From NCBI GenBank assembly GCA_000004985.1, contig GG738893.1: a stretch of 64,000 bases of DNA. One strand, written 5' to 3'. The notes under the pieces are model-generated. The model ran no database searches. It saw nothing but the letters and a program-made list of their open reading frames with translations, and was not told where the DNA came from. How positions within the stretch are numbered: the stretch's first letter is position 1; the number at the start of each line of letters is the position of its first letter. The position numbers and the translations under genes are program-made. This stretch comes from Naegleria gruberi (lineage: Eukaryota). This document shows, one piece after another, positions 20,324-47,445 of this stretch.

Positions 20324-21820
20324 TTAAACATCATAAATACCCACATGATCTGCCAAATTCATTTCTCGAATATATTTTTCACCCTCATCACTTATATTGT
20401 TGTCAACTGTGTTAAGTCTTGTTAATTGCTTCATTCCACATAGGAATTTAACGCCTTCGTCACCAATTTCATTGTAACCAATATCTAGAAAAGTTAATTG
20501 TTCCATTTCACTTATAAATTTGGCTCCCTCATCTCCAACAGCATTGTGATAGATAGAAAGCTGTGCTAGGTGCTTCATTTCACTGATTTGTTTTGCACCT
20601 TTTGCTCCAATATTATTATGAGCACTTATTAGATACGTTAAATTATCCATTTTACAGATATATTGTATACCTATTGGTGTAATATCAATACTAGAAACAT
20701 TAAGTTCAGTTAATTGGTTCATTTCACTTATAGATTGGACTCCGTTATCCCCAATATCATTATCAGAAATGTCAAGCTTAATTAAATTTTTCATTTGGCT
20801 AATGTGCATAGCCTCATACAGTGAAATCAAATTTTTAGCTATAGAAAGATGAGTTAATTGATTGAATGATGAAATGTATTCTACTCCATTCGATCCAATA
20901 CAGCGACTGTTTACATTAAGATCTGTTAATTGTTTCATTTCTCCAAAACACTTAACACCGTCATTAATAGAATTAAAACCAATATTGAGTTTGGTTATAT
21001 TCATCATTTCACTAACATACTTGGCACCGTTCTCGCCTATATTATTAACAGAAATATCAAGATTAGTTAATTGTTTCATTCCACTAATAAATTTAGCTCC
21101 TTCGTCACAAATATTGTTGCCAATAATGTTAAGGACAGTCAACTGTTTCATTTCACTAATAAATTTTGCTCCATCCACAGTAATTTCATTGGCACGGATA
21201 TTAAGAAAAGTCAACTGTTCAAGGCCACTAATATACTTGGCTCCTTCTGGGCCAATATTATTATTAGCAATATGAAGTTGTTTCAATTGCTTCATTTCAC
21301 CAATATACTTGGCTCCTTCTACACCAATATAATTACCCGTAATAAGAAGATAAGTTAGTGATTTCAATGATGGTAAATGTTTAGCAATAGGCAATCTAAA
21401 ATAACAGAAAGTCATATAAAGATCAGTCAATTGTTCCAATGAACATATATACTTGAATCCACTTGGATCAATATTAGAATTATATTCTATATTGAGCTTT
21501 TTCAATTCTTTCATCGAATCCAATATCTCACAATTAAATCCAATTTCCTCATTATTTATCACTCTTAGATTTGCAATATTTTCCAAAAACGGCAATTGAC
21601 CAACCATTTCCCAATCACTACTACGTGTTATCGAGAGGTGTTTACATGAATTTTTAATGACACGAAACCACTGTTTGGAAACCAATGCACACCTCTGTAC
21701 AATAAATTTAAAATCATCATGAAAAGATAAAATTTCAAAGAGCGAATCGTCAGAGAATGGAATATTTTCTACATTTTCTTGCACTTTAGAAGTGATGGAA
21801 TGGCTTGGTTGTGTGATCAT
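20324..21820 (-). CDS. F-box / RNI-like leucine-rich repeat protein
   Basis: N-terminus FSDDSLFEILSFHDDFKFIVQRCALVSKQWFRVIK is F-box-like. It is followed by about 16 tandem 24–25-aa repeats of the form QLTxLNIxxNNIGDEGAKYISEMK (ribonuclease-inhibitor-type LRR). ATG at 21820. Confidence 0.7.
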   Translation of the reverse strand: MITQPSHSITSKVQENVENIPFSDDSLFEILSFHDDFKFIVQRCALVSKQWFRVIKNSCKHLSITRSSDWEMVGQLPFLENIANLRVINNEEIGFNCEILDSMKELKKLNIEYNSNIDPSGFKYICSLEQLTDLYMTFCYFRLPIAKHLPSLKSLTYLLITGNYIGVEGAKYIGEMKQLKQLHIANNNIGPEGAKYISGLEQLTFLNIRANEITVDGAKFISEMKQLTVLNIIGNNICDEGAKFISGMKQLTNLDISVNNIGENGAKYVSEMMNITKLNIGFNSINDGVKCFGEMKQLTDLNVNSRCIGSNGVEYISSFNQLTHLSIAKNLISLYEAMHISQMKNLIKLDISDNDIGDNGVQSISEMNQLTELNVSSIDITPIGIQYICKMDNLTYLISAHNNIGAKGAKQISEMKHLAQLSIYHNAVGDEGAKFISEMEQLTFLDIGYNEIGDEGVKFLCGMKQLTRLNTVDNNISDEGEKYIREMNLADHVGIYDV

Positions 21821-23277: not shown

Positions 23278-24420
23278 TCAGTTTTCACCAGAGTTATTCT
23301 TCGTGTAAAGGTCTGTAAAGAATGATTCTAAATCTTTTGCTGACGGTCTGTTCTGTGGATCAGAATCAACCATTTTTAAAACCATCACACCAAATTCAGT
23401 AATATCCCACTTGATAGTTTTCATTATTAGATGTAAGTTGATATTTTCCTCATCCATAGCATTTTCGAATACTGCAGTGAACACCGTCCTATTTTTCAAA
23501 TATAAAAGTGAAGCTCCAAGGCTGTATATGTCTACTTTTTCATTATAATTGAGCTCTTGGCTAACCTCTGGAGATTTAAACAGAAGAGTTCCCACATTTT
23601 CATTGGCAAGCACAGTTTCGTTTTCTCTCACTTCATAATAATAACCCTTTTCATCCTCTTCAATCTCAAAACTCACACCAAAATCTATTAAAACAAAGCA
23701 TGAAATATTACTTGCGTTATTGAATGATCTTTTCATGATATTGCTTGGTTTTATATCTCTGTGAACTATTTTGTTTGCATGAAGAAAACCCATAGCTATT
23801 GAAATATCACTTGCCAATTTTAAGAGATATGATTCATTGCAATCATCTTCATTAATGGATTGAAGCTTTTCAAATTCAACACTATTGGAATAAATATTAA
23901 GCACTTGTGGAAGGTATAGACAATACTCCTTCCTATTCACTAATCTCATTATTATATTTCTTTCTTCATTATTTACATCCTTAATTACTGAAGTGGTTCG
24001 AACAATGTAGATATCTTCACTATTGTTTACAACTCCAACAACTTGCTTATACTGTTTCATTCTTTTGTGAGGTTTGATTTTTCTGTCTGTTGTAAGTTCA
24101 TCAATTAATCCAACCTGATTTTTAAAGGGTGTCTCTAATGCAGGCCTATATGGCCTCATTTCTGAACCAATATCTTTAGGAACATAGTGTTGAATGAAAT
24201 ATCCAATGTCCAAAAACAATTTCAACATTTGAACTGGACGTGTCGAATATTGGTGCATGTAAATTGAATATTTGGGAACAATTAGCAATTCTTTCTGATA
24301 GTTCACTTCCTCAAAGTTTGCCTCTAAAATGAATAAGTAAACAACTCTTTGAAGATATGAAATTCCCATCACCTTACTGTATTTTGTCATTTCTTCCTTT
24401 TTGAAGGCATATTTTTGCAT
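23278..24420 (-). CDS. Protein kinase-like protein (C-lobe clear, atypical N-lobe)
   Basis: HRDIKPSNIM catalytic loop, DFGVSF, SPEV (APE-like) and C-lobe helices are present. No canonical GxGxxG or VAIK was recognised. Upstream ORFs 24454..24696 and 24689..25339 on the same strand are probably 5' exons of the same gene. Confidence 0.5.
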   Translation of the reverse strand: MQKYAFKKEEMTKYSKVMGISYLQRVVYLFILEANFEEVNYQKELLIVPKYSIYMHQYSTRPVQMLKLFLDIGYFIQHYVPKDIGSEMRPYRPALETPFKNQVGLIDELTTDRKIKPHKRMKQYKQVVGVVNNSEDIYIVRTTSVIKDVNNEERNIIMRLVNRKEYCLYLPQVLNIYSNSVEFEKLQSINEDDCNESYLLKLASDISIAMGFLHANKIVHRDIKPSNIMKRSFNNASNISCFVLIDFGVSFEIEEDEKGYYYEVRENETVLANENVGTLLFKSPEVSQELNYNEKVDIYSLGASLLYLKNRTVFTAVFENAMDEENINLHLIMKTIKWDITEFGVMVLKMVDSDPQNRPSAKDLESFFTDLYTKNNSGEN

Positions 24421-24453: not shown

Positions 24454-25339
24454 TCAAATTACGCACCTTAATAAACTCTTCATACATATTATCAACTTGT
24501 GAAAATCAGTTCCCAATTGATACCATTTTTCAGTTTCATCCAAAGCTTTGTCTTCTTTCAGTAAAAAGGTGATTTCCTTATTATATAAATATCCATCATT
24601 TCGTTGATTTATCAAAGGTAATTCATCACTCAACCAAACTGTTGATTGCATATCACTATCAACCGTAAGTAAAAGAGGTTGTAATGACCTACCCATTCAA
24701 ATTAATTGTCCCAAATGAAGAGCAAATCACATCCAATAGACTGTTAATGGCAGAGGAGACTATTAGTTCTCCAATATTAGTTCTACAAGACATATCATGT
24801 AATTTTCGGGTTGCTAATATCAATTCACACAAGCACATTCGTGTAATATTACAATCAGAAAGGATGGACTCAATTTGATTCTTCAACATTTCACAAGCCT
24901 CTGTTTCAAAGCACGATTCTGACTTTTTTAATAATAACTGAGCAATATTGTCTGCATCTTCAATTGGAAACTCAAAGTTTTGATTCCAATCCTTCGGAAC
25001 AACATTTAAGGCATTAAAGAATGAAGCCTTTCCTTCAACCCAACACGGTTGCTTACTAGGTAAAGTTTTTACTCTTTCGCAATAATTTAAAAAAAACTCT
25101 AATTTACAATCATCATCATCAATAGTGTCCAGCAAGGAATTAAGCCTTTGATACCAGAGAGCTTTATCTGTTTTCTTCTCTTGCTTTCTCTTTAGCATTT
25201 TTTTTTTTAAATTTGAAAAAATATTAAGAAGCGCGAGTGCAACAGTTTTGTGATAAGGGATGTTATGGTAAGGATTGTGAAATTGCTGATTTTCATGTGG
25301 AGGAAATGATGGGTAGTAAATGATCCAACTGCAATGCAT
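24454..25339 (-). CDS. Probable 5' exons of the kinase gene, or a separate hypothetical protein (two ORF segments: 24689..25339 and 24454..24696)
   Basis: Same strand, contiguous and frame-shifted relative to each other. No recognisable domain. Confidence 0.25.
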
Positions 25340-25537: not shown

Positions 25538-25664
25538 ATGTTTTTCCTACTGGAAACAAAAGCTGCTAGTTATGCCTTGTTCCGTATTTTGGATGAAAGT
25601 AAAATTGGCAGTGTGCAATCAATCAATGAATTGTTTGATTCTAATAATCAATCACTTTCGGAAT
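25538..25664 (+). CDS. Nop5/56/58-family protein, exon 1 (NOP5 N-terminal motif)
   Basis: ATG at 25538 encodes MFFLLETKAASYALFRILDESKIGSVQSINELF. This matches the conserved N-terminus of Nop56/Nop58 (MLVLFETxxGYAIFKVLDE...). A GTATGT donor follows. Confidence 0.5.
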
Positions 25665-25730
25665 AGTATGTATATATTTTCTCCAAATAATTACAATTTC
25701 TAATGATGATGATGATGATATATGAAATAG

Positions 25731-27435
25731 TATTAAATTAGTATCGTTGGAAAGCTTTCAAAATTTATCCGAAACTAATGCTGAATTAAAATTGGAAAAG
25801 TTGGCCAAGTTATTGCATCAATTGACTGATCAAAGTTTATTGATGGTTTGTGATGAAAAACTTGGAGCTACCATCAAGAGTGAATTTGATATTGAATGCA
25901 TCTGTGATGAGATAGCAATTGCCTTGACGAAATTAATTCGTTCTAGATTTGAACACTTGTTGAGAGATGCAAATATTGATGATTTGGAAGAAACTCTTTC
26001 TAATAATCAAGCAAAAATAGAAAAAACTGATACAATGATTGTCCAATCTGTTTCATTATTGGATGAGCTTGAAAAGGAAGTGAATACGTATGTAATGAGA
26101 GTTAAGGAATGGTATGGTTGGCATTTTCCTGAATTGGCAAAGATTTTATCTGATGATTCTCTTTATATAGAGACTGTTTTATGTCTTCAAAATAGAAGCA
26201 ATGCCCAAAATGCTCCATTGACCAATTTTTTAACACAAGCTTTGGCTTTACAAGTTAGAGAAGGAGCCAGTTTTTCAATGGGTGGTGATATTTCTGATGA
26301 AGATATGCTTCAAATTACTAAATTGGCTGAGCAAGTTAAAAGTGTGAGTGAATACAGATCTTCCCTCTTGGATTATGTAAAGAAAAGAATGCAAACCATA
26401 GCACCAAATTTGACTAATCTAGTTGGTGAAATAGTTGGTGCTCGTTTAATTGCTAAATCTGGTGGTTTGGTGAGTTTGGCTAAACAAACATCAGCTTTGA
26501 ATAGTAATAGCAACATTTCTGAACGTGCTCTATTAAGAGCATTATCAAAAAAACAAAACACTCCAAAATATGGTTTATTATATTATCGCGATACACAAAA
26601 AAAGCGTGCTGAATTGGAAAGCGTAGCCAAGGATTCGACTCAAAAGAGAATTCATCAAGTTTTGCCAGCTGATTTATTGCTTGAGATATTTGTAATACTA
26701 TTCGATAGTTTAAACGATGATTGGCAATTCACAACTTTACAAAATTGTTCACTAGTTTGCAAGGAATGGAATGATTTGTTGAATTGGAGAAATTATTCAC
26801 ATGACAGCAATTTGTGGAAATTACTTTTGAGAAATAATTCTATTACATTGGATCAAGAGGAAACTACAGATGTTAGAAAGGAATTATGTAAATATTGGAT
26901 TCCAAGAGGAGAATTGACTGAAATTAGTCCAAATATTGAATTTAGTTATTTTGATTTTGGAAATTATCAAACTTTTGGAGAAATTCATGCTTTCAAAATG
27001 AAAAAGTCATTTGGATTTGGAATTTTAAAACGAATTATTAAGCAAGATGAAGAGATTCATGGATTATTCAAAGAATTCATGACCAATGCCAATCCAGAGC
27101 TTTATTTCCAAGATATTTCCTTAAATTCAGATCTAGTAGACAAGTACGAATCATCTATGGATGATGCCAGAGAGGAATATAATGGAGGAAGAACCTTTGA
27201 GGAAGAAAAGAAGGATTTGGAATCTGATTGTTTATTCTCGCAATTAACTGAACACATCAGAGGAGAAAAGGTAGAGCTATCGGATTTGAATCATTTAAGA
27301 GAATTCATTAAGGAGGAATGTCCTATTGTGGCTGAATATAAGGATTGTATTATTGGTGGTGTATTCTCAATGGCTTTTCTATTAATTACGAAACATGAAC
27401 GATGCGTTTATTTCGAATATTGTGCTGAGGTGTAG
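25731..27435 (+). CDS. Nop5/56/58-family protein, main exon: coiled-coil + Nop domain, fused to a C-terminal F-box-like region
   Basis: TDTMIVQSVSLLDELEKEVNTYVMRVKEWYGWHFPELAKIL and IAPNLTNLVGEIVGARLIAKSGGLVSLAKQTS...TPKYGLLYY align with the Nop56/58 Nop domain. Downstream lies LPADLLLEIFVILFDSLNDDWQFTTLQNCSLVCKEWNDLL, which is F-box-like. There is no KKE/D tail. Confidence 0.6.
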
Positions 27436-27496: not shown

Positions 27497-30235
27497 TTAA
27501 TAGGAAGCCAATGCTTCAAAAGCTTGTTTGGCAGTTGGTCTTGAATCTGGATCCAAATTTAACATGTCAAATGTGAGTTTTTTAAGTGAGGTAATAATTT
27601 CCAAATCTTGTCCAGACCAAGTTCTCTCGATTTGGGTGGTCAAAAAGTCGAATTCACCATTTTGGACTTTTCCTTTCACATCAGTATTAAAATCAAATGA
27701 AAGTAATTGGTAGAACATGACTCCCATCGACCAGATATCTGTTGAGAGGTTGTATCCTCTTCTACTTGACATTTCAGGACTCATATAACTATTAAATTGA
27801 AAATTATTGAAATCTTGTTAATTAAAAGTGAAAACTTACCTTGCAGTACCTGCAACTTGAGTTTCAGTTTTGAGTAAAGTCTTAGCCAAACCAAAATCAG
27901 ACAAGATTGGTTTGAGTGTCTTGTTAGCCAAATCAATGGATTCAATCAAGACGTTTTGAGGTTTGATATCTCTGTGGACAATTGAATATTCTTCATGTAA
28001 ATAGGTCAAGGAATCCATCAATTGTTTCATAATTGAGCCCAATAACTTTTCAGTAATGATTTGAGATTGATTCTTAACAAGCTCATACAAGTCACCATGA
28101 CTGTACAATGGCATGGCGAAACAAAGATATCTCTTTGTTTCAACACCCATAATACCAATGTCAGAGCTTTGAACTTCAAAGACATCTGAAATTCTGGCAA
28201 TGTTTGCGTGATCCAATTGCAACATTTGAATACCTTCTCTCATGGATCTGTTAAAGTTTACAATACTGTCAATTTCAATGTATTTAAGGGCACAAAGAGA
28301 TGGTTTGGTCTCTGTTGAGGAATAGGCATTGGCAGAATAAACACTACCGAAACCACCCTTACCAATACGTTTCAAGATTTGATACTTGTCATTGACCAAC
28401 TGAATATTAGTGTTTCTTTCAATAATTTGACTGATTTGGTTGACTTGGATTTCTTCCTTAATAATTCTAATCTTGGCAACTTTTGGTGATCTAGGAATAT
28501 CTTCAATTCTCTCTAATTCAACCCAATCATTGATAGAATCTTCAAAGTATTCTACAATAACTCCCCTATCAAACAATTCATTCATGCTTTGATGTTCTTC
28601 TTGGATTTGGAACTTTTCAAGAATGGACTTGACAAGTAATGCAAAAGTGATATTTCCAGATTCCTTAGTCTTCTTCTTCTTTCCATTAAATTCAATGAGG
28701 AGAATGAAATCTTCACCTGCTTGTGAATCGTCATCTCCACTTTGCAAATTCTTCTTCAAATCAAATAATTCTTCAATGTAGGTCTTATTGCTGTCAAACA
28801 AGAGTTTCTTACTCTCATTGATTGATGTCTCATAGAAATCATATTTTTCACTATTGAAAAACTTTTCTGGATTATCCTTAACCATATTATACAATCCATT
28901 ACAGAAAAGTCTTTCAATTGGTTCATTTCTCAGCTTGATTAAATCTCCCAATGTAACAACAGCCTCTTCAATGAATGGCTCCACATATTCTGGATATTTG
29001 GCTGCCTCCTTATAGACCTGTGCACAATAACTAGCACAGACAGTTGCTGGCAATTTGGCTGCAAAATAAACTTTGGAATATCTTTGGAAAAACATTTTGA
29101 AATCTACCTTGGCCAATGTTGGATATACAGCTCCCAAAACTGCCTTTGAAGTTTCACTAGCTCCATACTTAATTACCAATTGATTCATATTATCATTCCT
29201 CAAAATATCCAACAATAGGTCAATTTTTTCCTGAGTTCCAAATGCCATTTGAATAAACAATGAAAAGAGTGTAATAATATTCGAATCTTGCTTTTCAATC
29301 AAATGACAATGTCTCAACAATACTTTCACAACCAATCTTAAATCATCTGTCACTTTTCCAAGTGCCATCACTTGCAAAACAGAAGAAATAATCGAATTAA
29401 TTGTAAATATATTATCCATATATAAATCAAGAGTTGTTTTCAAACTGTCAAATGTAAATGCTACAGTAGATGGTAGCTCATCTCTTGTTTGACAATTATT
29501 TTGTTGTAAAATCAAATCTAATTGTCGTTGAATGGGTTGGAGTGAGCTTGACATTGGAGAGGATGAAACAATTGCTTTCAATTCGGAGAGAGAAACTAAA
29601 AATTCACCTTGTTTGGTTGCATCTTGTGGAATTTCCTCTTGATTAGTTTCGGTAGTTTCGTCTGGAATTTGAGGAGTGGTTTCTTCTTGTTCTTGCTGTG
29701 GAATTTCTTGTGTGGAAATGGTTTCTTCTTCTTCTTGTTGTTGTGGAATAGTTTCAGAGGTTTCTTCTGGAATAGTTTCGTCTACTACTTGAGAGGTTTC
29801 TTCCAAGGAATTTTCTGTTGATGATTCTACAATGGATGATGAAGGTAATTCTTCAACAACAATAGAGGATTCGTCTTGAGATTCCAATGGTGCTGAAGGA
29901 GTTTCTTCTTGTGGTGGAACAATAGTTGATGTTGTTTCGTCTTGAGATTCTTCCAATGTTGTGTGAGTTTCTTCTTGTGGTGGAGCTGATGGTTCAATAG
30001 AATTTGATTGATCATTAGAAGTGATTGTTTCGTTTCGAATATTTTCATTAATGATGATATTTGATGGTTTACTACTTTCGTCCGGAATAGTTTGAATATT
30101 CTGTGGTTGGTTATCATCAGAACTAGTTGGTTTCTTGAAAATTGTTCGTTTTGGTGGAATGTTAGAAGCAGTGTTATTATTATTCGATTCTGCTTTCTTC
30201 TCCCACATTGAAAGAAGAGAACTCAACTTGCCCAT
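27497..30235 (-). CDS. Serine/threonine protein kinase with a long N-terminal S/T/E/Q-rich region and an unassigned central domain; 2 exons (30235..27836, 27784..27497)
   Basis: ATG at 30235. Kinase motifs: IGKGGFGSVY, ALKYI, HRDIKPQNVLI, DFGLAK. The splice ACTGCAAG|GTAAGT...tttaatag restores GTASYMSPE. Subdomains IX–XI sit in the second exon. Confidence 0.75.
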
Positions 30236-30599: not shown

Positions 30600-31472
30600 C
30601 TATTGGCGAACTGCTACCTGATCCAAATTTTCCACAAAACATTTGGCTTGCTCTTTATGGTAAATGGACGAAATGCCAATTTTTGAGCTAGTTGACTTTT
30701 CAGAATCGAATAGAATTTTGTAAAAATCTTCAAAATTATCAAATCGAATACAGACACACAGGGCAGCAATTGTCATTTCAGTCCTTTGTAAAATCTTTTC
30801 TTTCGAGTTGACTAGGGAAACAATGACACGATCTGTCCACACATTTGGTGAATACTGTTCAGAACCGAGAATTGTAAGAATGGCAGCCATCTTTGCCAAA
30901 CTATATTTCATTTCAAAATCAAATTCTTCTCCATCCCTTTTAAAGGCAACTTCCACATTTGGTCTAAACGGATTGGGAATTCGAAACTCTGTAAATGTCT
31001 CCAAACTAAATTCTGTAATAATTTCCTCTTCCTCTTCTGAATCATTCTCACTACTACTACTACAACTACAACTACTCAAATCATTATCATCATTGTCATC
31101 ATTCTTTCGTTTCTTTTTGGGTGGTGAAGTAATTTTCTTCTGCCTCTTCTTTCCATCATTATAATACTCGGCCTCATCTTCCTCCTGATACCAAATCAGA
31201 TATCTATGAAATAGTGGAAAACAAAACAAGGTTCTAAATAATAGGTACCAATATTCATCCCGATCAAGCTTTTCGGAAAAGATTAATTGATCACTCCACT
31301 CAAAATCTGCTTCCATCAATAGATCGGAATAGAGCGGAAACCATAGATCATTATGTTTACTTGCCTTGTACCATTTTCTATTGATTAATTGAATGGAATT
31401 GCTGAGCAGTGATTGTGGCGGTAAAAATTGGAAAATTTTGAGGAGGAAAAATTCATTCACTTGTTTTGGCAT
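30600..31472 (-). CDS. F-box-like protein with acidic Ser-rich linker
   Basis: N-terminus FFLLKIFQFLPPQSLLSNSIQLINRKWYKASKHNDLW is F-box-like. ATG at 31472. Confidence 0.45.
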   Translation of the reverse strand: MPKQVNEFFLLKIFQFLPPQSLLSNSIQLINRKWYKASKHNDLWFPLYSDLLMEADFEWSDQLIFSEKLDRDEYWYLLFRTLFCFPLFHRYLIWYQEEDEAEYYNDGKKRQKKITSPPKKKRKNDDNDDNDLSSCSCSSSSENDSEEEEEIITEFSLETFTEFRIPNPFRPNVEVAFKRDGEEFDFEMKYSLAKMAAILTILGSEQYSPNVWTDRVIVSLVNSKEKILQRTEMTIAALCVCIRFDNFEDFYKILFDSEKSTSSKIGISSIYHKEQAKCFVENLDQVAVRQ

Positions 31473-45888: not shown

Positions 45889-47445
45889 ATGAAGTTGACA
45901 TCTGCCATTGTCATGGCCATTTTGATGGCTGTGCTTTACGCTACATATGTTACCGCTTCCACAGATTCATTCGATGCATTGACAGATGCCATGGTCGAAG
46001 CAATCTATGCCAGAAGATTACCTAGATCTGGTGGAGGTGCCAGAGGTGGCTCAAGAGGAGGTGCCAGAGGAGGTGCTCGTGGAGGATCAAGAGGTGCTAG
46101 AGGAGGAGCCAGAGGTGGATCTCGTGGTGGTGCCAGAGGTGGTGCTAGAGGAGGTTCTCGTGGTGCCAGAGGTGGATCTAGAGGTGGTGCCAGAGGTGGT
46201 GCTAGAGGAGGAGCCAGAGGAGGATCAAGAGGTGGAAAAGCTGGTAAAGCTGGTAAAGGAGGTAGAGGTGGATCTAGAGGTGGTAAGGCCGGAAAGGGAG
46301 GAAAAGCTGGTAAAGGAGGAAAAGGAAAAGCTGGTAAGGGAGGAAAAGCTGGTAAAGGTGGAAAAGGAAAAGGTGGAAAAGCTGGTAAGGGAGGAAAAGG
46401 TAAAGGAAAAGGAGGTAAGGGTAAAGGTGGTAAAGGAAAAGGTGGAAAGGGAAAGAAGGATAAGAAGGGAAAGAAAGACAAGAAGGGAAAGAAGGATAAG
46501 AAAGATAAGAAGGGAAAGAAGGACAAGAAGGATAAGAATCAACAACAACAAGGTGGAGAACAAGGAGGTCAAGATGGTGGTCAACCAGGAGGTGAACAAC
46601 CACAACAACCAGAACAAGGAGGTGAACAACCACAACAACCTGAACAACCACAAGAACAACCACCAGTTGAACAACCACAACCTGAACAACCACAACAACC
46701 TGAACAAGCTCCAGTTGAACAACCACAACAACCTGAACAACAAGCTCAACCAGAACAAGCTCAACAACCTGAAGTTGCTCAACCACAAGCTCAAGAACAA
46801 CAACCACAAGCTCCAGTTGAACAAACTCAACAACCAGCTCAACAAGCTCCTGTTGAACAACAACCAATTGCTCAACAACCAGCTCAAGAACAAGCTCCAG
46901 TTGCTGCCCAACCTGTTCAAGAACAACCACAAGTTGCTCAACCTCAAGTTCAACAACCTGAAGTAGCTCAACAAGTTGCTCAAGAAGGTCCACAACCAAT
47001 TGCTCAACCTGATCAACCACAACCAGATCAACAAGTTGCTCAACAAAACCCAGACTTCCAACGTGCTCCACAATATGGTGACAAGCAAAGAATTGAATAC
47101 TTGAGAGGAATGATCAAGAAGAATATTTCCCCACAAGTTGCTCAACCAGAACAACAAGTTGCTCAACCTGAAGTAGCTCAACAAGAAGTTCCACAACCAA
47201 TTGCTCAACCTGATCAAGTTGCTCAACCAACTGAACAAACTCAACCAGCTAGAAGAACTAGAAAGTACAACAGAGGTGGTAACAGAAGAGGTACCAGAAG
47301 AAATCAATTCTCTCAAATTCCTGAATTTGGTAGATATTTCTTGGGTAATCAAGCTAAGGCTCAAAATGGTGATAACGATAGAATCAACTTTTTGAGAGGT
47401 TTGATTGATTTGCTCATTGCTCAAACTAAAGCTCAACAAAATTAA
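45889..47445 (+). CDS. Secreted, extremely repetitive low-complexity protein: signal peptide, (GGARGGSRGG)n, (GKAGKGGK)n, (KKDKKG)n, Q/P/E-rich (QPEQPQ, VAQPE)n, basic C-terminal region
   Basis: MKLTSAIVMAILMAVLYATYVTAS signal peptide. There are more than 14 RGG-type decapeptide repeats, then Gly-Lys repeats, then Lys-Asp repeats, then approx 250 aa of Gln/Pro/Glu repeats. Two RI(E/N)(Y/F)LRG(M/L)I motifs occur near the end. Confidence 0.6.
   Translation: MKLTSAIVMAILMAVLYATYVTASTDSFDALTDAMVEAIYARRLPRSGGGARGGSRGGARGGARGGSRGARGGARGGSRGGARGGARGGSRGARGGSRGGARGGARGGARGGSRGGKAGKAGKGGRGGSRGGKAGKGGKAGKGGKGKAGKGGKAGKGGKGKGGKAGKGGKGKGKGGKGKGGKGKGGKGKKDKKGKKDKKGKKDKKDKKGKKDKKDKNQQQQGGEQGGQDGGQPGGEQPQQPEQGGEQPQQPEQPQEQPPVEQPQPEQPQQPEQAPVEQPQQPEQQAQPEQAQQPEVAQPQAQEQQPQAPVEQTQQPAQQAPVEQQPIAQQPAQEQAPVAAQPVQEQPQVAQPQVQQPEVAQQVAQEGPQPIAQPDQPQPDQQVAQQNPDFQRAPQYGDKQRIEYLRGMIKKNISPQVAQPEQQVAQPEVAQQEVPQPIAQPDQVAQPTEQTQPARRTRKYNRGGNRRGTRRNQFSQIPEFGRYFLGNQAKAQNGDNDRINFLRGLIDLLIAQTKAQQN
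46020..47230 (+). repeat. Coding tandem repeat array (30-nt GGARGGSRGG units, GKAGKGG units, KKDKK units, QPEQ-type units)
   Basis: ggtgccagaggtggtgctagaggaggatcaaga-type periodicity is directly visible. This region generates many spurious overlapping ORFs on both strands. Confidence 0.7.

What the first reader, a model, noticed from the sequence alone, without database searches (positions are those of the whole stretch)
25538..27435. Divergent fourth Nop5/56/58-family paralog in which the C-terminal KKE/D tail is replaced by an F-box-like domain
NOP5NT, the coiled-coil region and the Nop domain are all recognisable (MFFLLETKAASYALF..., EWYGWHFPELAKIL, GARLIAKSGGLVSLAK...TPKYGLLYY) but strongly diverged. 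After the Nop domain the protein continues into LPADLLLEIFVILFDS...LVCKEWNDLL (F-box-like) plus approx 250 aa of unassigned sequence. Nop-domain proteins are normally limited to Nop56, Nop58 and Prp31. An SCF-adaptor-type fusion would link snoRNP/15.5K–RNA recognition to ubiquitin ligase recruitment.
Basis: partly seen in the sequence, partly recalled or inferred. Interest (0 to 1): 0.65.

Follow-up and report, generated by a model that had tools for sequence, protein, structure and literature searches.

The report
Nop58 copy fused to F-box protein
In the amoeba Naegleria gruberi, a fast-evolving extra copy of the snoRNP core protein Nop58 has lost the end of its RNA-binding domain and is fused in one reading frame to a small lineage-specific F-box protein; this is a curious single-species chimera that probably recruits a ubiquitin ligase, and it has no functional data.

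Summary
Window 25538-27435 (+) encodes a two-exon, 610-aa protein identical to GenBank EFC40276.1, "NOP58-like protein" of Naegleria gruberi NEG-M.

- **N-terminal part (aa 1-330):** clearly Nop58-derived (human NOP58 E=6e-67; Pfam Nop E=1.6e-49).
- **Extra copy:** a canonical Nop58 (EFC39244, 463 aa) lies on another scaffold, so this is a paralog. It is about 55% identical to that copy, whereas N. gruberi and N. fowleri Nop58 are 90% identical.
- **Losses:** the last 51 of 228 Pfam Nop positions, the STVQILGAEK motif, the SRYKLKF segment and the KKE/D tail.
- **C-terminal part (aa ~350-610):** not unassigned sequence. It is a full copy of a tiny Naegleria-only family that also exists as a stand-alone 289-aa protein (EFC43996, E=6e-34).
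- **F-box:** below Pfam's cut-off in this protein but above it in a homolog. It matches a validated F-box profile (hhalign 93%, E=3e-7).
- **Selection:** the ORF is kept open by selection, though constraint is relaxed.

Most likely it is an SCF substrate receptor carrying a Nop58-derived protein-binding module. Intact 15.5K/K-turn RNA recognition is doubtful. No ortholog, transcript or publication was found. It is a new variant of known kinds, of moderate interest.

The parts
25538..25665 (+). Exon 1 (aa 1-42 plus two bases of codon 43); start of the NOP5NT-like N-terminal domain
   Evidence: ATG at 25538; the spliced product is identical to EFC40276.1; it aligns with human NOP58 from residue 2
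25666..25730 (+). 65-nt spliceosomal intron, GTATGT...ATAG, phase 2
   Evidence: Needed to join the two frames; the model equals the GenBank protein exactly
25731..27435 (+). Exon 2 (aa 43-610 plus the TAG stop), one uninterrupted reading frame across the Nop58-like and F-box halves
   Evidence: ORF list; P(no stop)=3e-19; other frames carry 22-68 stops
25984..26046 (+). Degenerate linker (aa 128-148, LEETLSNNQAKIEKTDTMIVQ). It replaces the conserved LGLSHSLSRYKLKFSPDK segment of Nop58, with a 7-aa and a 2-aa deletion
   Evidence: Alignments A1 and A2
26056..26592 (+). Pfam Nop match (aa 152-330): coiled-coil helices plus the first part of the Nop domain, ending at TPKYGLLYY; profile positions 1-177 of 228 only
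   Evidence: (168.9 bits), compared with canonical 1-227/228 at 282.8 bits
26494..26544 (+). Degenerate GAEK/ALFR region (aa 298-314): ALNSNSNISERALLRAL in place of ASTVQILGAEKAFFRAL
   Evidence: Nine changes at columns that are >=95% conserved. The role of the GAEK motif in separating the guide strand is described in PMC5499572
26587..26658 (+). Junction segment (aa 329-352, RDTQKKRAELESVAKDSTQKRIHQ). It is basic, predicted helical at low confidence, and shows no credible homology to the last Nop helices
   Evidence: Retention of conserved Nop58 columns after aa 330 is 5/30, about chance level. The stand-alone paralog starts at MKQILPEL, which corresponds to aa ~350
26650..26835 (+). F-box (aa 350-411): LPADLLLEIF ... 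CSLVCKEWNDLL ... NLWKLL, with two family-specific loop insertions of 8 and 9 aa
   Evidence: Pfam F-box-like 19.6 bits here and 25.6 bits (above the cut-off) in homolog P0136. hhalign against a PDB-validated F-box profile gives 93.4%, E=2.6e-7
26836..27432 (+). Family-specific C-terminal domain (aa 412-610), alpha/beta by prediction, ending ECPIVAEYKDC...CVYFEYCAEV; presumed substrate-binding part of the F-box protein
   Evidence: Homologs EFC43996 (E=6.3e-34), EFC39519 and Logan contig L001. No Pfam match and no fold match

Best explanation
This is a lineage-specific chimeric gene of Naegleria gruberi. A duplicate of the Nop58 gene, truncated inside the last part of its Nop domain, became joined in frame to a member of a small Naegleria-only family of F-box proteins (F-box plus a ~200-aa domain of unknown fold). 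The product most likely works as an SCF (Skp1-Cul1-F-box) substrate receptor. In that reading the internal F-box docks on Skp1, and the family-specific C-terminal domain does whatever it does in the stand-alone paralogs. The Nop58-derived N-terminal 330 aa would then act as an added protein-binding or localising module, keeping the fibrillarin-binding N-domain and the coiled coil that normally pairs with Nop56. This could bring box C/D snoRNP proteins, or their unassembled forms, to the ligase, or bring the ligase to the nucleolus. It is probably no longer a bona fide snoRNP core protein, because the elements that handle the guide RNA and the Snu13/K-turn platform are degenerate or missing. 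Shown here: ancestry of both halves, paralogy, truncation, motif loss, F-box homology at profile level, and selection for an open frame. Inferred only: Skp1 binding, retention of fibrillarin/Nop56 binding, any substrate, and expression.
For: Nop58 ancestry: human NOP58 E=5.7e-67 over aa 2-330. The best database relatives are the canonical Nop58 of N. gruberi, N. fowleri and Willaertia. The protein shares 24 of 57 heterolobosean-specific residues, against 11 shared with outgroups.

Paralogy: canonical EFC39244 is on another scaffold.

Accelerated but constrained evolution: identity to the canonical copy is 54.6%, while canonical N. gruberi and N. fowleri are 90% identical. NG86 gives dN 0.32 and dS 0.68. 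Synonymous codons are still more alike than chance: 117 of 173 observed against ~99 expected, reached in 0 of 2000 permutations. Identity is 69% at conserved Nop58 columns and 37% at variable ones, Fisher p=3e-9. Under neutrality 12-35 nonsense hits are expected in the Nop58 part alone, giving P(none) <= 9e-6.

Loss of RNA-handling elements: Nop profile 1-177/228 against 1-227/228 in the canonical copy; the GAEK region and the SRYKLKF segment are ablated. The review PMC7065041 places the protein- and RNA-binding regions of the Prp31 Nop domain at residues 222-254 and 278-307. By my motif mapping, the second region corresponds to the lost segment.

C-terminal half as a pre-existing gene: stand-alone EFC43996 (289 aa, E=6.3e-34, aligned end to end) and Logan contig L001, which has its own start Met preceded by an in-frame stop.

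F-box.

Single translation unit: there is no Met between aa 263 and 466.
Against: No ortholog of the fusion was found in N. fowleri, Willaertia or any other data set, so conservation of the architecture cannot be shown. No transcript contig encoding it was found, although the canonical Nop58 is present as transcript-like Logan contigs. The averaged dN/dS is high, roughly 0.3-0.9 on this branch by rough reasoning. That fits neofunctionalisation but also a gene drifting toward loss. The F-box is below Pfam's own cut-off in this protein, and the family profile found no F-box protein in PDB by hmmsearch. AlphaFold2 models were poor (mean pLDDT 55 and 51) and include a low-confidence Nop core, so no structural support exists for either half being folded as proposed.
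Confidence: 0.55

Rival explanations
1. One reading: the Nop58-like half still recognises the Snu13(15.5K)-K-turn RNA platform. The protein would then target box C/D (or U4-like) RNPs as RNPs for SCF-dependent ubiquitination.
For: The core Nop signatures EWYGWHFPEL, APNLTNLVGEIVGARLIA, LAK and TPKYGLLY are retained. 40 of 57 strongly conserved columns in aa 251-330 are kept.
Against: The last 51 Pfam positions of the Nop domain are replaced by unrelated sequence, and only 5 of 30 conserved columns are kept after aa 330. The STVQILGAEK motif, which ends helix alpha9 and separates the guide strand in archaeal Nop5 (PMC5499572), reads ALNSNSNISER. The second protein/RNA-binding stretch of the Prp31 Nop domain (residues 278-307, PMC7065041) maps to the missing part by my motif mapping. 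AlphaFold2 gives pLDDT below 50 for aa ~269-328.
Confidence: 0.15
2. An evolutionary accident without function: a young chimeric gene (or a transcriptionally silent one) on its way to becoming a pseudogene. It may still be kept open by weak or past selection.
For: It is known from one genome only. dN/dS is high and hallmark motifs are lost. No transcript contig was found. Both parent families remain intact elsewhere in the genome.
Against: The reading frame is open across 610 codons, with P <= 9e-6 for the Nop58 part alone under neutral drift at the observed synonymous divergence. Substitutions avoid conserved columns, p=3e-9. The splice sites are canonical. The F-box consensus residues are all in place.
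Confidence: 0.22
3. Assembly or annotation artefact: two separate genes (a Nop58-like fragment and an F-box gene) were joined by a chimeric clone or a collapsed assembly.
For: Only one assembly contains the junction. No independent contig spans it.
Against: The junction lies inside one long exon. The frame is preserved, and no stop, Met or intergenic-type sequence lies between the halves. The stand-alone paralog's start codon has no counterpart here. GC3 is similar in the two halves, 0.24 and 0.26.
Confidence: 0.03

Closest known systems
Canonical Nop58 (N. gruberi EFC39244/XP_002671988; human NOP58, PDB 7MQ8 chain SB)
   Same: Collinear homology over aa 1-330: the NOP5NT-type N-domain, the coiled-coil helices and the first part of the Nop domain. 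Retained signatures include EWYGWHFPEL, APNLT.LVGE.VGARLIA and TPKYGLLY.
   Different: Only 54.6% identical to its own species' Nop58. It lacks the last ~50 Nop profile positions and the KKE/D tail. The GAEK region and the SRYKLKF segment are degenerate. It carries 280 extra residues with an F-box.
N. gruberi EFC43996 (XP_002676740, 289 aa 'predicted protein') with its relatives EFC39519 and Logan contig ERR1598038_23936
   Same: aa 350-610 align end to end with the stand-alone protein at 41% identity (E=6.3e-34). They share the same F-box with the same two insertions and the same C-terminal ECPIVxEY...CIxFEY ending.
   Different: Those proteins start with a Met a few residues before the F-box and have no Nop58-like part. 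Here the start Met is absent and 349 residues precede the F-box.
F-box proteins / SCF substrate receptors (Skp2, Fbw7, beta-TrCP, TIR1)
   Same: LPxxLLxxIF ... CxLVCKxW ... LW pattern. Profile-profile match to a profile built from these proteins: 93.4%, E=2.6e-7.
   Different: The F-box lies in the middle of the protein rather than near the N-terminus and has two loop insertions. It scores below Pfam's cut-off. The flanking domains are not WD40, LRR or any other known substrate-binding type. Skp1 binding is untested.
Prp31 (U4 snRNP Nop-domain protein)
   Same: A precedent for a Nop5-family paralog that diverged to a new partner set. It matches aa 145-332 at E~1e-16.
   Different: Prp31 keeps a complete Nop domain that binds 15.5K-U4 RNA. 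This protein is much closer to Nop58 than to Prp31 (E=6e-67 against 8e-17) and has a truncated Nop domain.

Membership tests
Nop5/Nop56/Nop58 family | Significant match to the Pfam Nop domain (PF01798) above its gathering score | tested here: met
   168.9 bits against a cut-off of 25.4, E=1.6e-49
Nop5/Nop56/Nop58 family | Complete Nop domain, including the C-terminal helices after the YGLIYH motif | tested here: not met
   Profile positions 1-177 of 228 only, whereas the canonical N. gruberi Nop58 covers 1-227. Only 5 of 30 conserved columns are kept after aa 330
Nop5/Nop56/Nop58 family | NOP5NT N-terminal (fibrillarin-binding) domain | tested here: inconclusive
   Pfam NOP5NT scores 20.3 bits, below the cut-off of 27. 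However, phmmer aligns aa 2-330 collinearly with human NOP58 residues 2-345, and 31 of 46 conserved columns are kept in aa 1-125
Nop5/Nop56/Nop58 family | Conserved STxQxLGAEKALFR motif (GAEK/ALFR) | tested here: not met
   It reads ALNSNSNISERALLR, with nine substitutions at columns >=95% conserved plus a one-residue insertion
Nop5/Nop56/Nop58 family | Lys/Glu/Asp-rich C-terminal tail (eukaryotic Nop56/58) | tested here: not met
   The tail is absent and is replaced by the F-box module
Nop5/Nop56/Nop58 family | Being the organism's Nop58 ortholog | tested here: not met
   The canonical 463-aa Nop58 (EFC39244) is on another scaffold and is 90% identical to N. fowleri Nop58. This protein is 54.6% identical to it
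Nop5/Nop56/Nop58 family | Binding to Snu13/15.5K-K-turn RNA, fibrillarin and a coiled-coil partner | not testable with these tools
   Needs biochemistry. The AlphaFold2 model is of low confidence
Nop5/Nop56/Nop58 family | 'Fourth' member, alongside Nop56, Nop58 and Prp31 in the same genome | not tested
   Only Nop58 was confirmed.
F-box proteins (SCF substrate receptors) | Match to a Pfam F-box model above its gathering score | tested here: not met
   F-box-like 19.6 bits (cut-off 24.3) and F-box 13.5 bits (cut-off 20.5). Homolog P0136, 49% identical in this region, scores 25.6 bits and passes
F-box proteins (SCF substrate receptors) | Profile-level homology to solved F-box domains, including the LP...IF / VCKxW / LW pattern | tested here: met
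   hhalign of family alignment A6 against F-box profile A7 gives 93.4%, E=2.6e-7 over 48 columns. A7 retrieves only F-box proteins from PDB. As a caveat, hmmsearch of A6 against PDB found none
F-box proteins (SCF substrate receptors) | Binding to Skp1 and assembly into an SCF ligase | not testable with these tools
   Needs an interaction assay
Naegleria EFC43996-type F-box family | End-to-end homology to the stand-alone family members (F-box plus C-terminal domain) | tested here: met
   E=6.3e-34; query residues 22-279 align with target residues 3-288 of 289; alignment A3

The most novel reading that the evidence does not exclude
The protein is a dedicated ubiquitin-ligase adaptor that uses a Nop58 'mimic' (fibrillarin-binding N-domain plus Nop56-pairing coiled coil, stripped of RNA-binding elements) to capture unassembled or surplus box C/D snoRNP proteins. 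It would then hand them to SCF for ubiquitination. That would be a built-in quality or abundance control of snoRNP assembly, made by domain fusion.
Probability: 0.15. Interest if true: 0.6.

Novelty: new variant of a known kind. Interest (0 to 1): 0.38.

Why it matters
Nop-domain proteins are among the most conserved and architecturally rigid RNP proteins in eukaryotes. A copy that keeps the protein-interaction scaffold, sheds the RNA-handling parts and gains an F-box would be a natural experiment in re-using an RNP core protein as a targeting module for ubiquitination. If functional, it would offer a handle on how the levels or assembly of box C/D snoRNP subunits can be policed. It is also a clean, datable example of gene birth by fusion of a duplicated essential gene with a lineage-specific gene. 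The limits are serious: one species, no expression or interaction data, and fast evolution that leaves a drift-to-loss reading open.

Tried and rejected
- **Word-indexed protein search with the C-terminal 281 aa:** nothing found. The exhaustive HMMER search then found the family.
- **Search with the family alignment for more members or other Nop-F-box fusions:** it returned only two of the known members.
- **Exact look-ups of the ORF, the spliced protein and paralogs in the contig collection:** not on record. So there was no independent contig, no transcript evidence, and no genomic DNA of the canonical Nop58 for intron comparison.
- **Metagenome scans:** a scan for the junction sequence and a scan for relatives of the C-terminal half both found nothing.
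- **AlphaFold2:** I modelled aa 44-610 with a Nop58 alignment and aa 345-610 with the family alignment. Mean pLDDT was 55 and 51.
- **Foldseek against PDB with the second model:** no match at E<=0.001. The top hit, MAF1, had TM 0.2-0.3 and rmsd 13 Å, so I disregarded it. I ran no further search on low-confidence models.
- **hmmsearch of the family's F-box profile against PDB:** only a chance dynein hit.
- **Possible homology between 'KRIHQVLPA' and the Nop helix 'GKIARVLAAK':** MAFFT suggested it. I rejected it because the stand-alone paralog already has 'KQILPEL' at its own N-terminus.
- **H328Y as loss of the Prp31 His270-type RNA contact:** I recalled this from memory, then rejected it. The PRPF31 numbering in PMC7065041 shows that the YIYH histidine is His276, and His270 aligns with the retained Lys322.
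- **Literature searches:** searches on the accession numbers and on Naegleria with Nop58, Nop56 or F-box gave nothing on this protein.
Full report
**What is there.** The window is a gene-dense, 34% GC stretch of the Naegleria gruberi NEG-M genome. Several window ORFs are identical to GenBank proteins of one 337,165-bp scaffold: EFC40270, EFC40350 and EFC40357. At 25538-27435 on the + strand lies a two-exon gene. Exon 1 is 25538-25665, the intron is 65 nt (GTATGT...ATAG, 25666-25730), and exon 2 is 25731-27435. The spliced 610-aa product is identical to EFC40276.1 / XP_002673020.1 / UniProt D2VS33, named 'NOP58-like protein' by the annotators. It did not appear in my first homology search. The reason is that its 90% cluster in the search database is represented by an unrelated 54-aa marine peptide. 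The frame is open for 562 codons in exon 2, where the base composition predicts a probability of 3e-19. The other five frames of the same DNA have 22-68 stops each.

**The N-terminal 330 residues are a diverged Nop58.**
- Pfam gives Nop (PF01798) at E=1.6e-49, aa 152-330.
- phmmer against PDB aligns aa 2-330 collinearly with human NOP58 (E=5.7e-67) and with yeast and Chaetomium Nop58 (E~1e-59). Nop56 follows (E~1e-57 and weaker), then archaeal Nop5 (1e-26) and Prp31 (1e-16).
- The closest proteins in 5.8 billion are the canonical Nop58 of N. gruberi (EFC39244, 463 aa, another scaffold), N. fowleri and Willaertia magna. So this is an extra copy, not the organism's Nop58.
- Over 324 gap-free columns it is 54.6% identical to its own species' Nop58. 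N. gruberi and N. fowleri Nop58 are 90% identical, and Naegleria and grapevine Nop58 are 60% identical.
- It shares 24 of 57 residues that are specific to heterolobosean Nop58, against 11 shared with outgroups. It therefore derives from a heterolobosean Nop58 rather than from an ancient paralog.
- Whether the duplication preceded or followed the N. gruberi / N. fowleri split is not resolved by the few informative sites.
- Synonymous sites against a canonical Nop58 transcript contig (L002) are not saturated. NG86 dS is 0.68 and dN is 0.32. Identical codons occur at 117 of 173 identical residues against ~99 expected, a value reached in 0 of 2000 permutations. This points to a fairly recent duplication followed by strongly accelerated protein evolution.

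**What the Nop58-like part has lost.**
- The canonical N. gruberi Nop58 matches Pfam Nop over positions 1-227 of 228 (282.8 bits) and NOP5NT at 68 bits.
- This protein matches Nop only over positions 1-177 (168.9 bits) and NOP5NT at 20 bits, below the cut-off.
- After TPKYGLLYY (aa 320-328) the sequence no longer resembles Nop58. Only 5 of 30 strongly conserved columns are kept, against 117 of 167 before that point.
- Two further conserved blocks are ablated. ASTVQILGAEKAFFRAL has become ALNSNSNISERALLRAL. The LGLSHSLSRYKLKFSPDK linker is shortened and rewritten.
- A review of PRPF31 places the conserved protein- and RNA-binding regions of the Prp31 Nop domain at residues 222-254 and 278-307 (PMC7065041). 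By motif position (YIYHS = 273-277 in that paper's mutation table), the second region corresponds to the segment missing here. That mapping is my inference.
- The Lys/Glu/Asp-rich tail is absent.
- I therefore consider it unlikely that the protein still recognises the Snu13/15.5K-K-turn platform in the canonical way.

**The C-terminal 260 residues are a pre-existing gene.** The word-indexed search found nothing for aa 331-610. An exhaustive HMMER search of 1.84 billion representatives found four relatives.
- EFC43996 of N. gruberi is a 289-aa stand-alone protein, 41% identical, E=6.3e-34, aligned from its residue 3 to 288.
- EFC39519 of N. gruberi is 196 aa and covers the C-terminal domain only.
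- Two adjacent ORFs lie on one 1.6-kb Logan contig from run ERR1598038. On that contig the protein starts with its own Met, preceded by an in-frame stop, and has no Nop-like sequence upstream.
- No member was found in N. fowleri, Willaertia or elsewhere.
- The stand-alone proteins begin 'MKQILPELWIEIF' and 'MAPPVIVVLPSELWIEIF'. The fusion reads '...QKRIHQVLPADLLLEIF'. The junction therefore lies at about aa 349-352, and the start codon of the F-box gene is not present.
- The fusion protein has no Met between residues 263 and 466. The F-box half cannot be made separately from an internal ATG.

**Is the F-box real?**
- In this protein Pfam F-box-like scores 19.6 bits (cut-off 24.3), and F-box scores 13.5 bits.
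- All three family members that contain the region hit F-box-like at the same place. One of them (P0136) reaches 25.6 bits, above the cut-off.
- I built a small F-box profile from Skp2, beta-TrCP, Fbw7, Cdc4, TIR1, cyclin F, FBXO2 and FBXL3 segments, which I recalled from memory.
- I validated that profile against PDB. It retrieves those proteins at E~1e-14 to 1e-21, and at E<=1e-5 every other named hit is an F-box protein apart from one ECT2-like entry and one unnamed expressed sequence.
- hhalign of the Naegleria family segment against the profile gives probability 93.4%, E=2.6e-7 over 48 columns. LP, the hydrophobic face of helix 1, CxLVCKxW and the trailing LW all align, and two loop insertions of 8 and 9 residues are specific to the family.
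- A plain hmmsearch of the three-sequence family profile against PDB found no F-box protein.
- I conclude that the segment is a true, somewhat atypical F-box. Skp1 binding is untested.
- The following ~200 residues have no Pfam match. AlphaFold2 models were poor (mean pLDDT 55 for aa 44-610 and 51 for aa 345-610), and Foldseek against PDB gave nothing credible. The fold and ligand of that domain remain unknown.

**Is the gene under selection?** Two observations argue against a decaying pseudogene.
- Substitutions relative to the canonical copy avoid conserved positions. Identity is 69% at columns >=95% conserved among Nop58 proteins and 37% at the others (Fisher p=3e-9).
- The canonical CDS has 174 single-base routes to a stop codon in its first 350 codons. 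With neutral divergence of 0.2-0.6 per site on this branch, 12-35 nonsense hits would be expected, giving P(none) between 9e-6 and 8e-16. Yet the frame is intact.
- On the other side, the pairwise dN/dS of 0.47 is very high for a Nop58. Almost all of the dN must lie on this branch, because the canonical copy is so conserved.
- Constraint is therefore strongly relaxed, or mixed with adaptive change.
- No transcript contig for the gene was found, although the canonical Nop58 is represented by transcript-length Logan contigs. This is weak negative evidence only.

**Most likely mechanism.** The architecture is a Nop58-derived scaffold, then an F-box, then a family-specific domain. It is best read as an F-box protein that has acquired an extra N-terminal interaction module.
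- By analogy with all characterised F-box proteins (established knowledge, not tested here), the F-box would dock on Skp1-Cul1-Rbx1 and the other domains would select substrates.
- The Nop58-derived part keeps roughly 70% of conserved positions in each of its three sections: N-domain 31/46, coiled coil 46/64, Nop core 40/57. It has lost RNA-handling motifs.
- The parsimonious inference is that it retains protein-protein contacts (fibrillarin, the Nop56 coiled coil) rather than RNP recognition.
- It could thereby direct ubiquitination to box C/D snoRNP proteins or their unassembled forms, or localise the ligase.
- I give this 0.55.

**Surroundings.**
- The gene is flanked upstream by a divergent 216-aa ORF without a family (24689-25339, -) and a kinase (23278-24420, -).
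- Downstream lies a convergent kinase gene (27497-30235, -) that ends 60 nt after the stop.
- An unrelated sub-threshold F-box-like ORF lies at 30600-31472 (-), and an LRR protein at 20324-21820 (-).
- No second Nop-like or family-like sequence is present in the window.

**Novelty.** The gene has been in GenBank as 'NOP58-like protein' since the genome release. I found no paper that mentions its accession numbers or a Nop-F-box architecture in Naegleria. New here are the recognition of the two-gene fusion, the truncated Nop domain and lost motifs, the stand-alone F-box family, and the selection analysis. It is a new variant of known kinds (a Nop-family paralog and an F-box protein), confined so far to one species, with no functional data. 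Interest is moderate.

Noticed in passing
window 45889-47445 (+): A 518-aa ORF with a hydrophobic signal-like N-terminus, followed by about 20 (S/A)RGG repeats, GKG/GKAGKGG and KDKK runs, and long PEQ/QPQ-rich blocks. It forms a GC island (up to 54%, strong purine skew) in a 34% GC window. The low complexity spawns several spurious long ORFs in other frames and on the other strand. No Pfam match.
   Followed up: partly
window 30600-31472 (-): A 290-aa ORF with a sub-threshold F-box-like match at its N-terminus (23.2 bits, cut-off 24.3). It is unrelated to the C-terminal family of the target.
   Followed up: partly
window 20324-21820 (-): A 498-aa leucine-rich-repeat protein (LRR_6, E=5e-41). 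Its N-terminus (21748-21668) gives a weak tblastn match to the target's F-box (42% over 33 aa, E=0.13), so it may be an FBXL-type F-box protein.
   Followed up: no
protein database cluster of EFC40276.1 (P0139/P0140; loci L003-L006): The 90%-identity cluster that holds this 610-aa protein is represented by an unrelated 54-aa peptide from TARA Oceans contigs. The protein is therefore invisible to the word-indexed homology search. This is a database artefact, not biology.
   Followed up: yes
L001 (Logan ERR1598038_23936) 409-1288: The stand-alone family member on this contig is split between two reading frames at about nt 700-720. This could be a frameshift, an assembly error or a pseudogene. 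The source organism of the run is unknown, and the contig is 33% GC, similar to Naegleria.
   Followed up: partly
window 27497-30235 (-): A convergent neighbour encoding a protein kinase with a long Ser/Glu/Gln-rich N-terminal region. Its kinase domain appears interrupted by a short intron at about 27785-27835, and its stop lies only ~60 nt from the target's stop.
   Followed up: no
window 24689-25339 (-): A divergently oriented 216-aa ORF that shares a ~200-nt promoter region with the target. It has no family assignment apart from a sub-threshold AHH nuclease hit (18.5 bits, cut-off 22.3), and this exact ORF is not in the protein collection.
   Followed up: no
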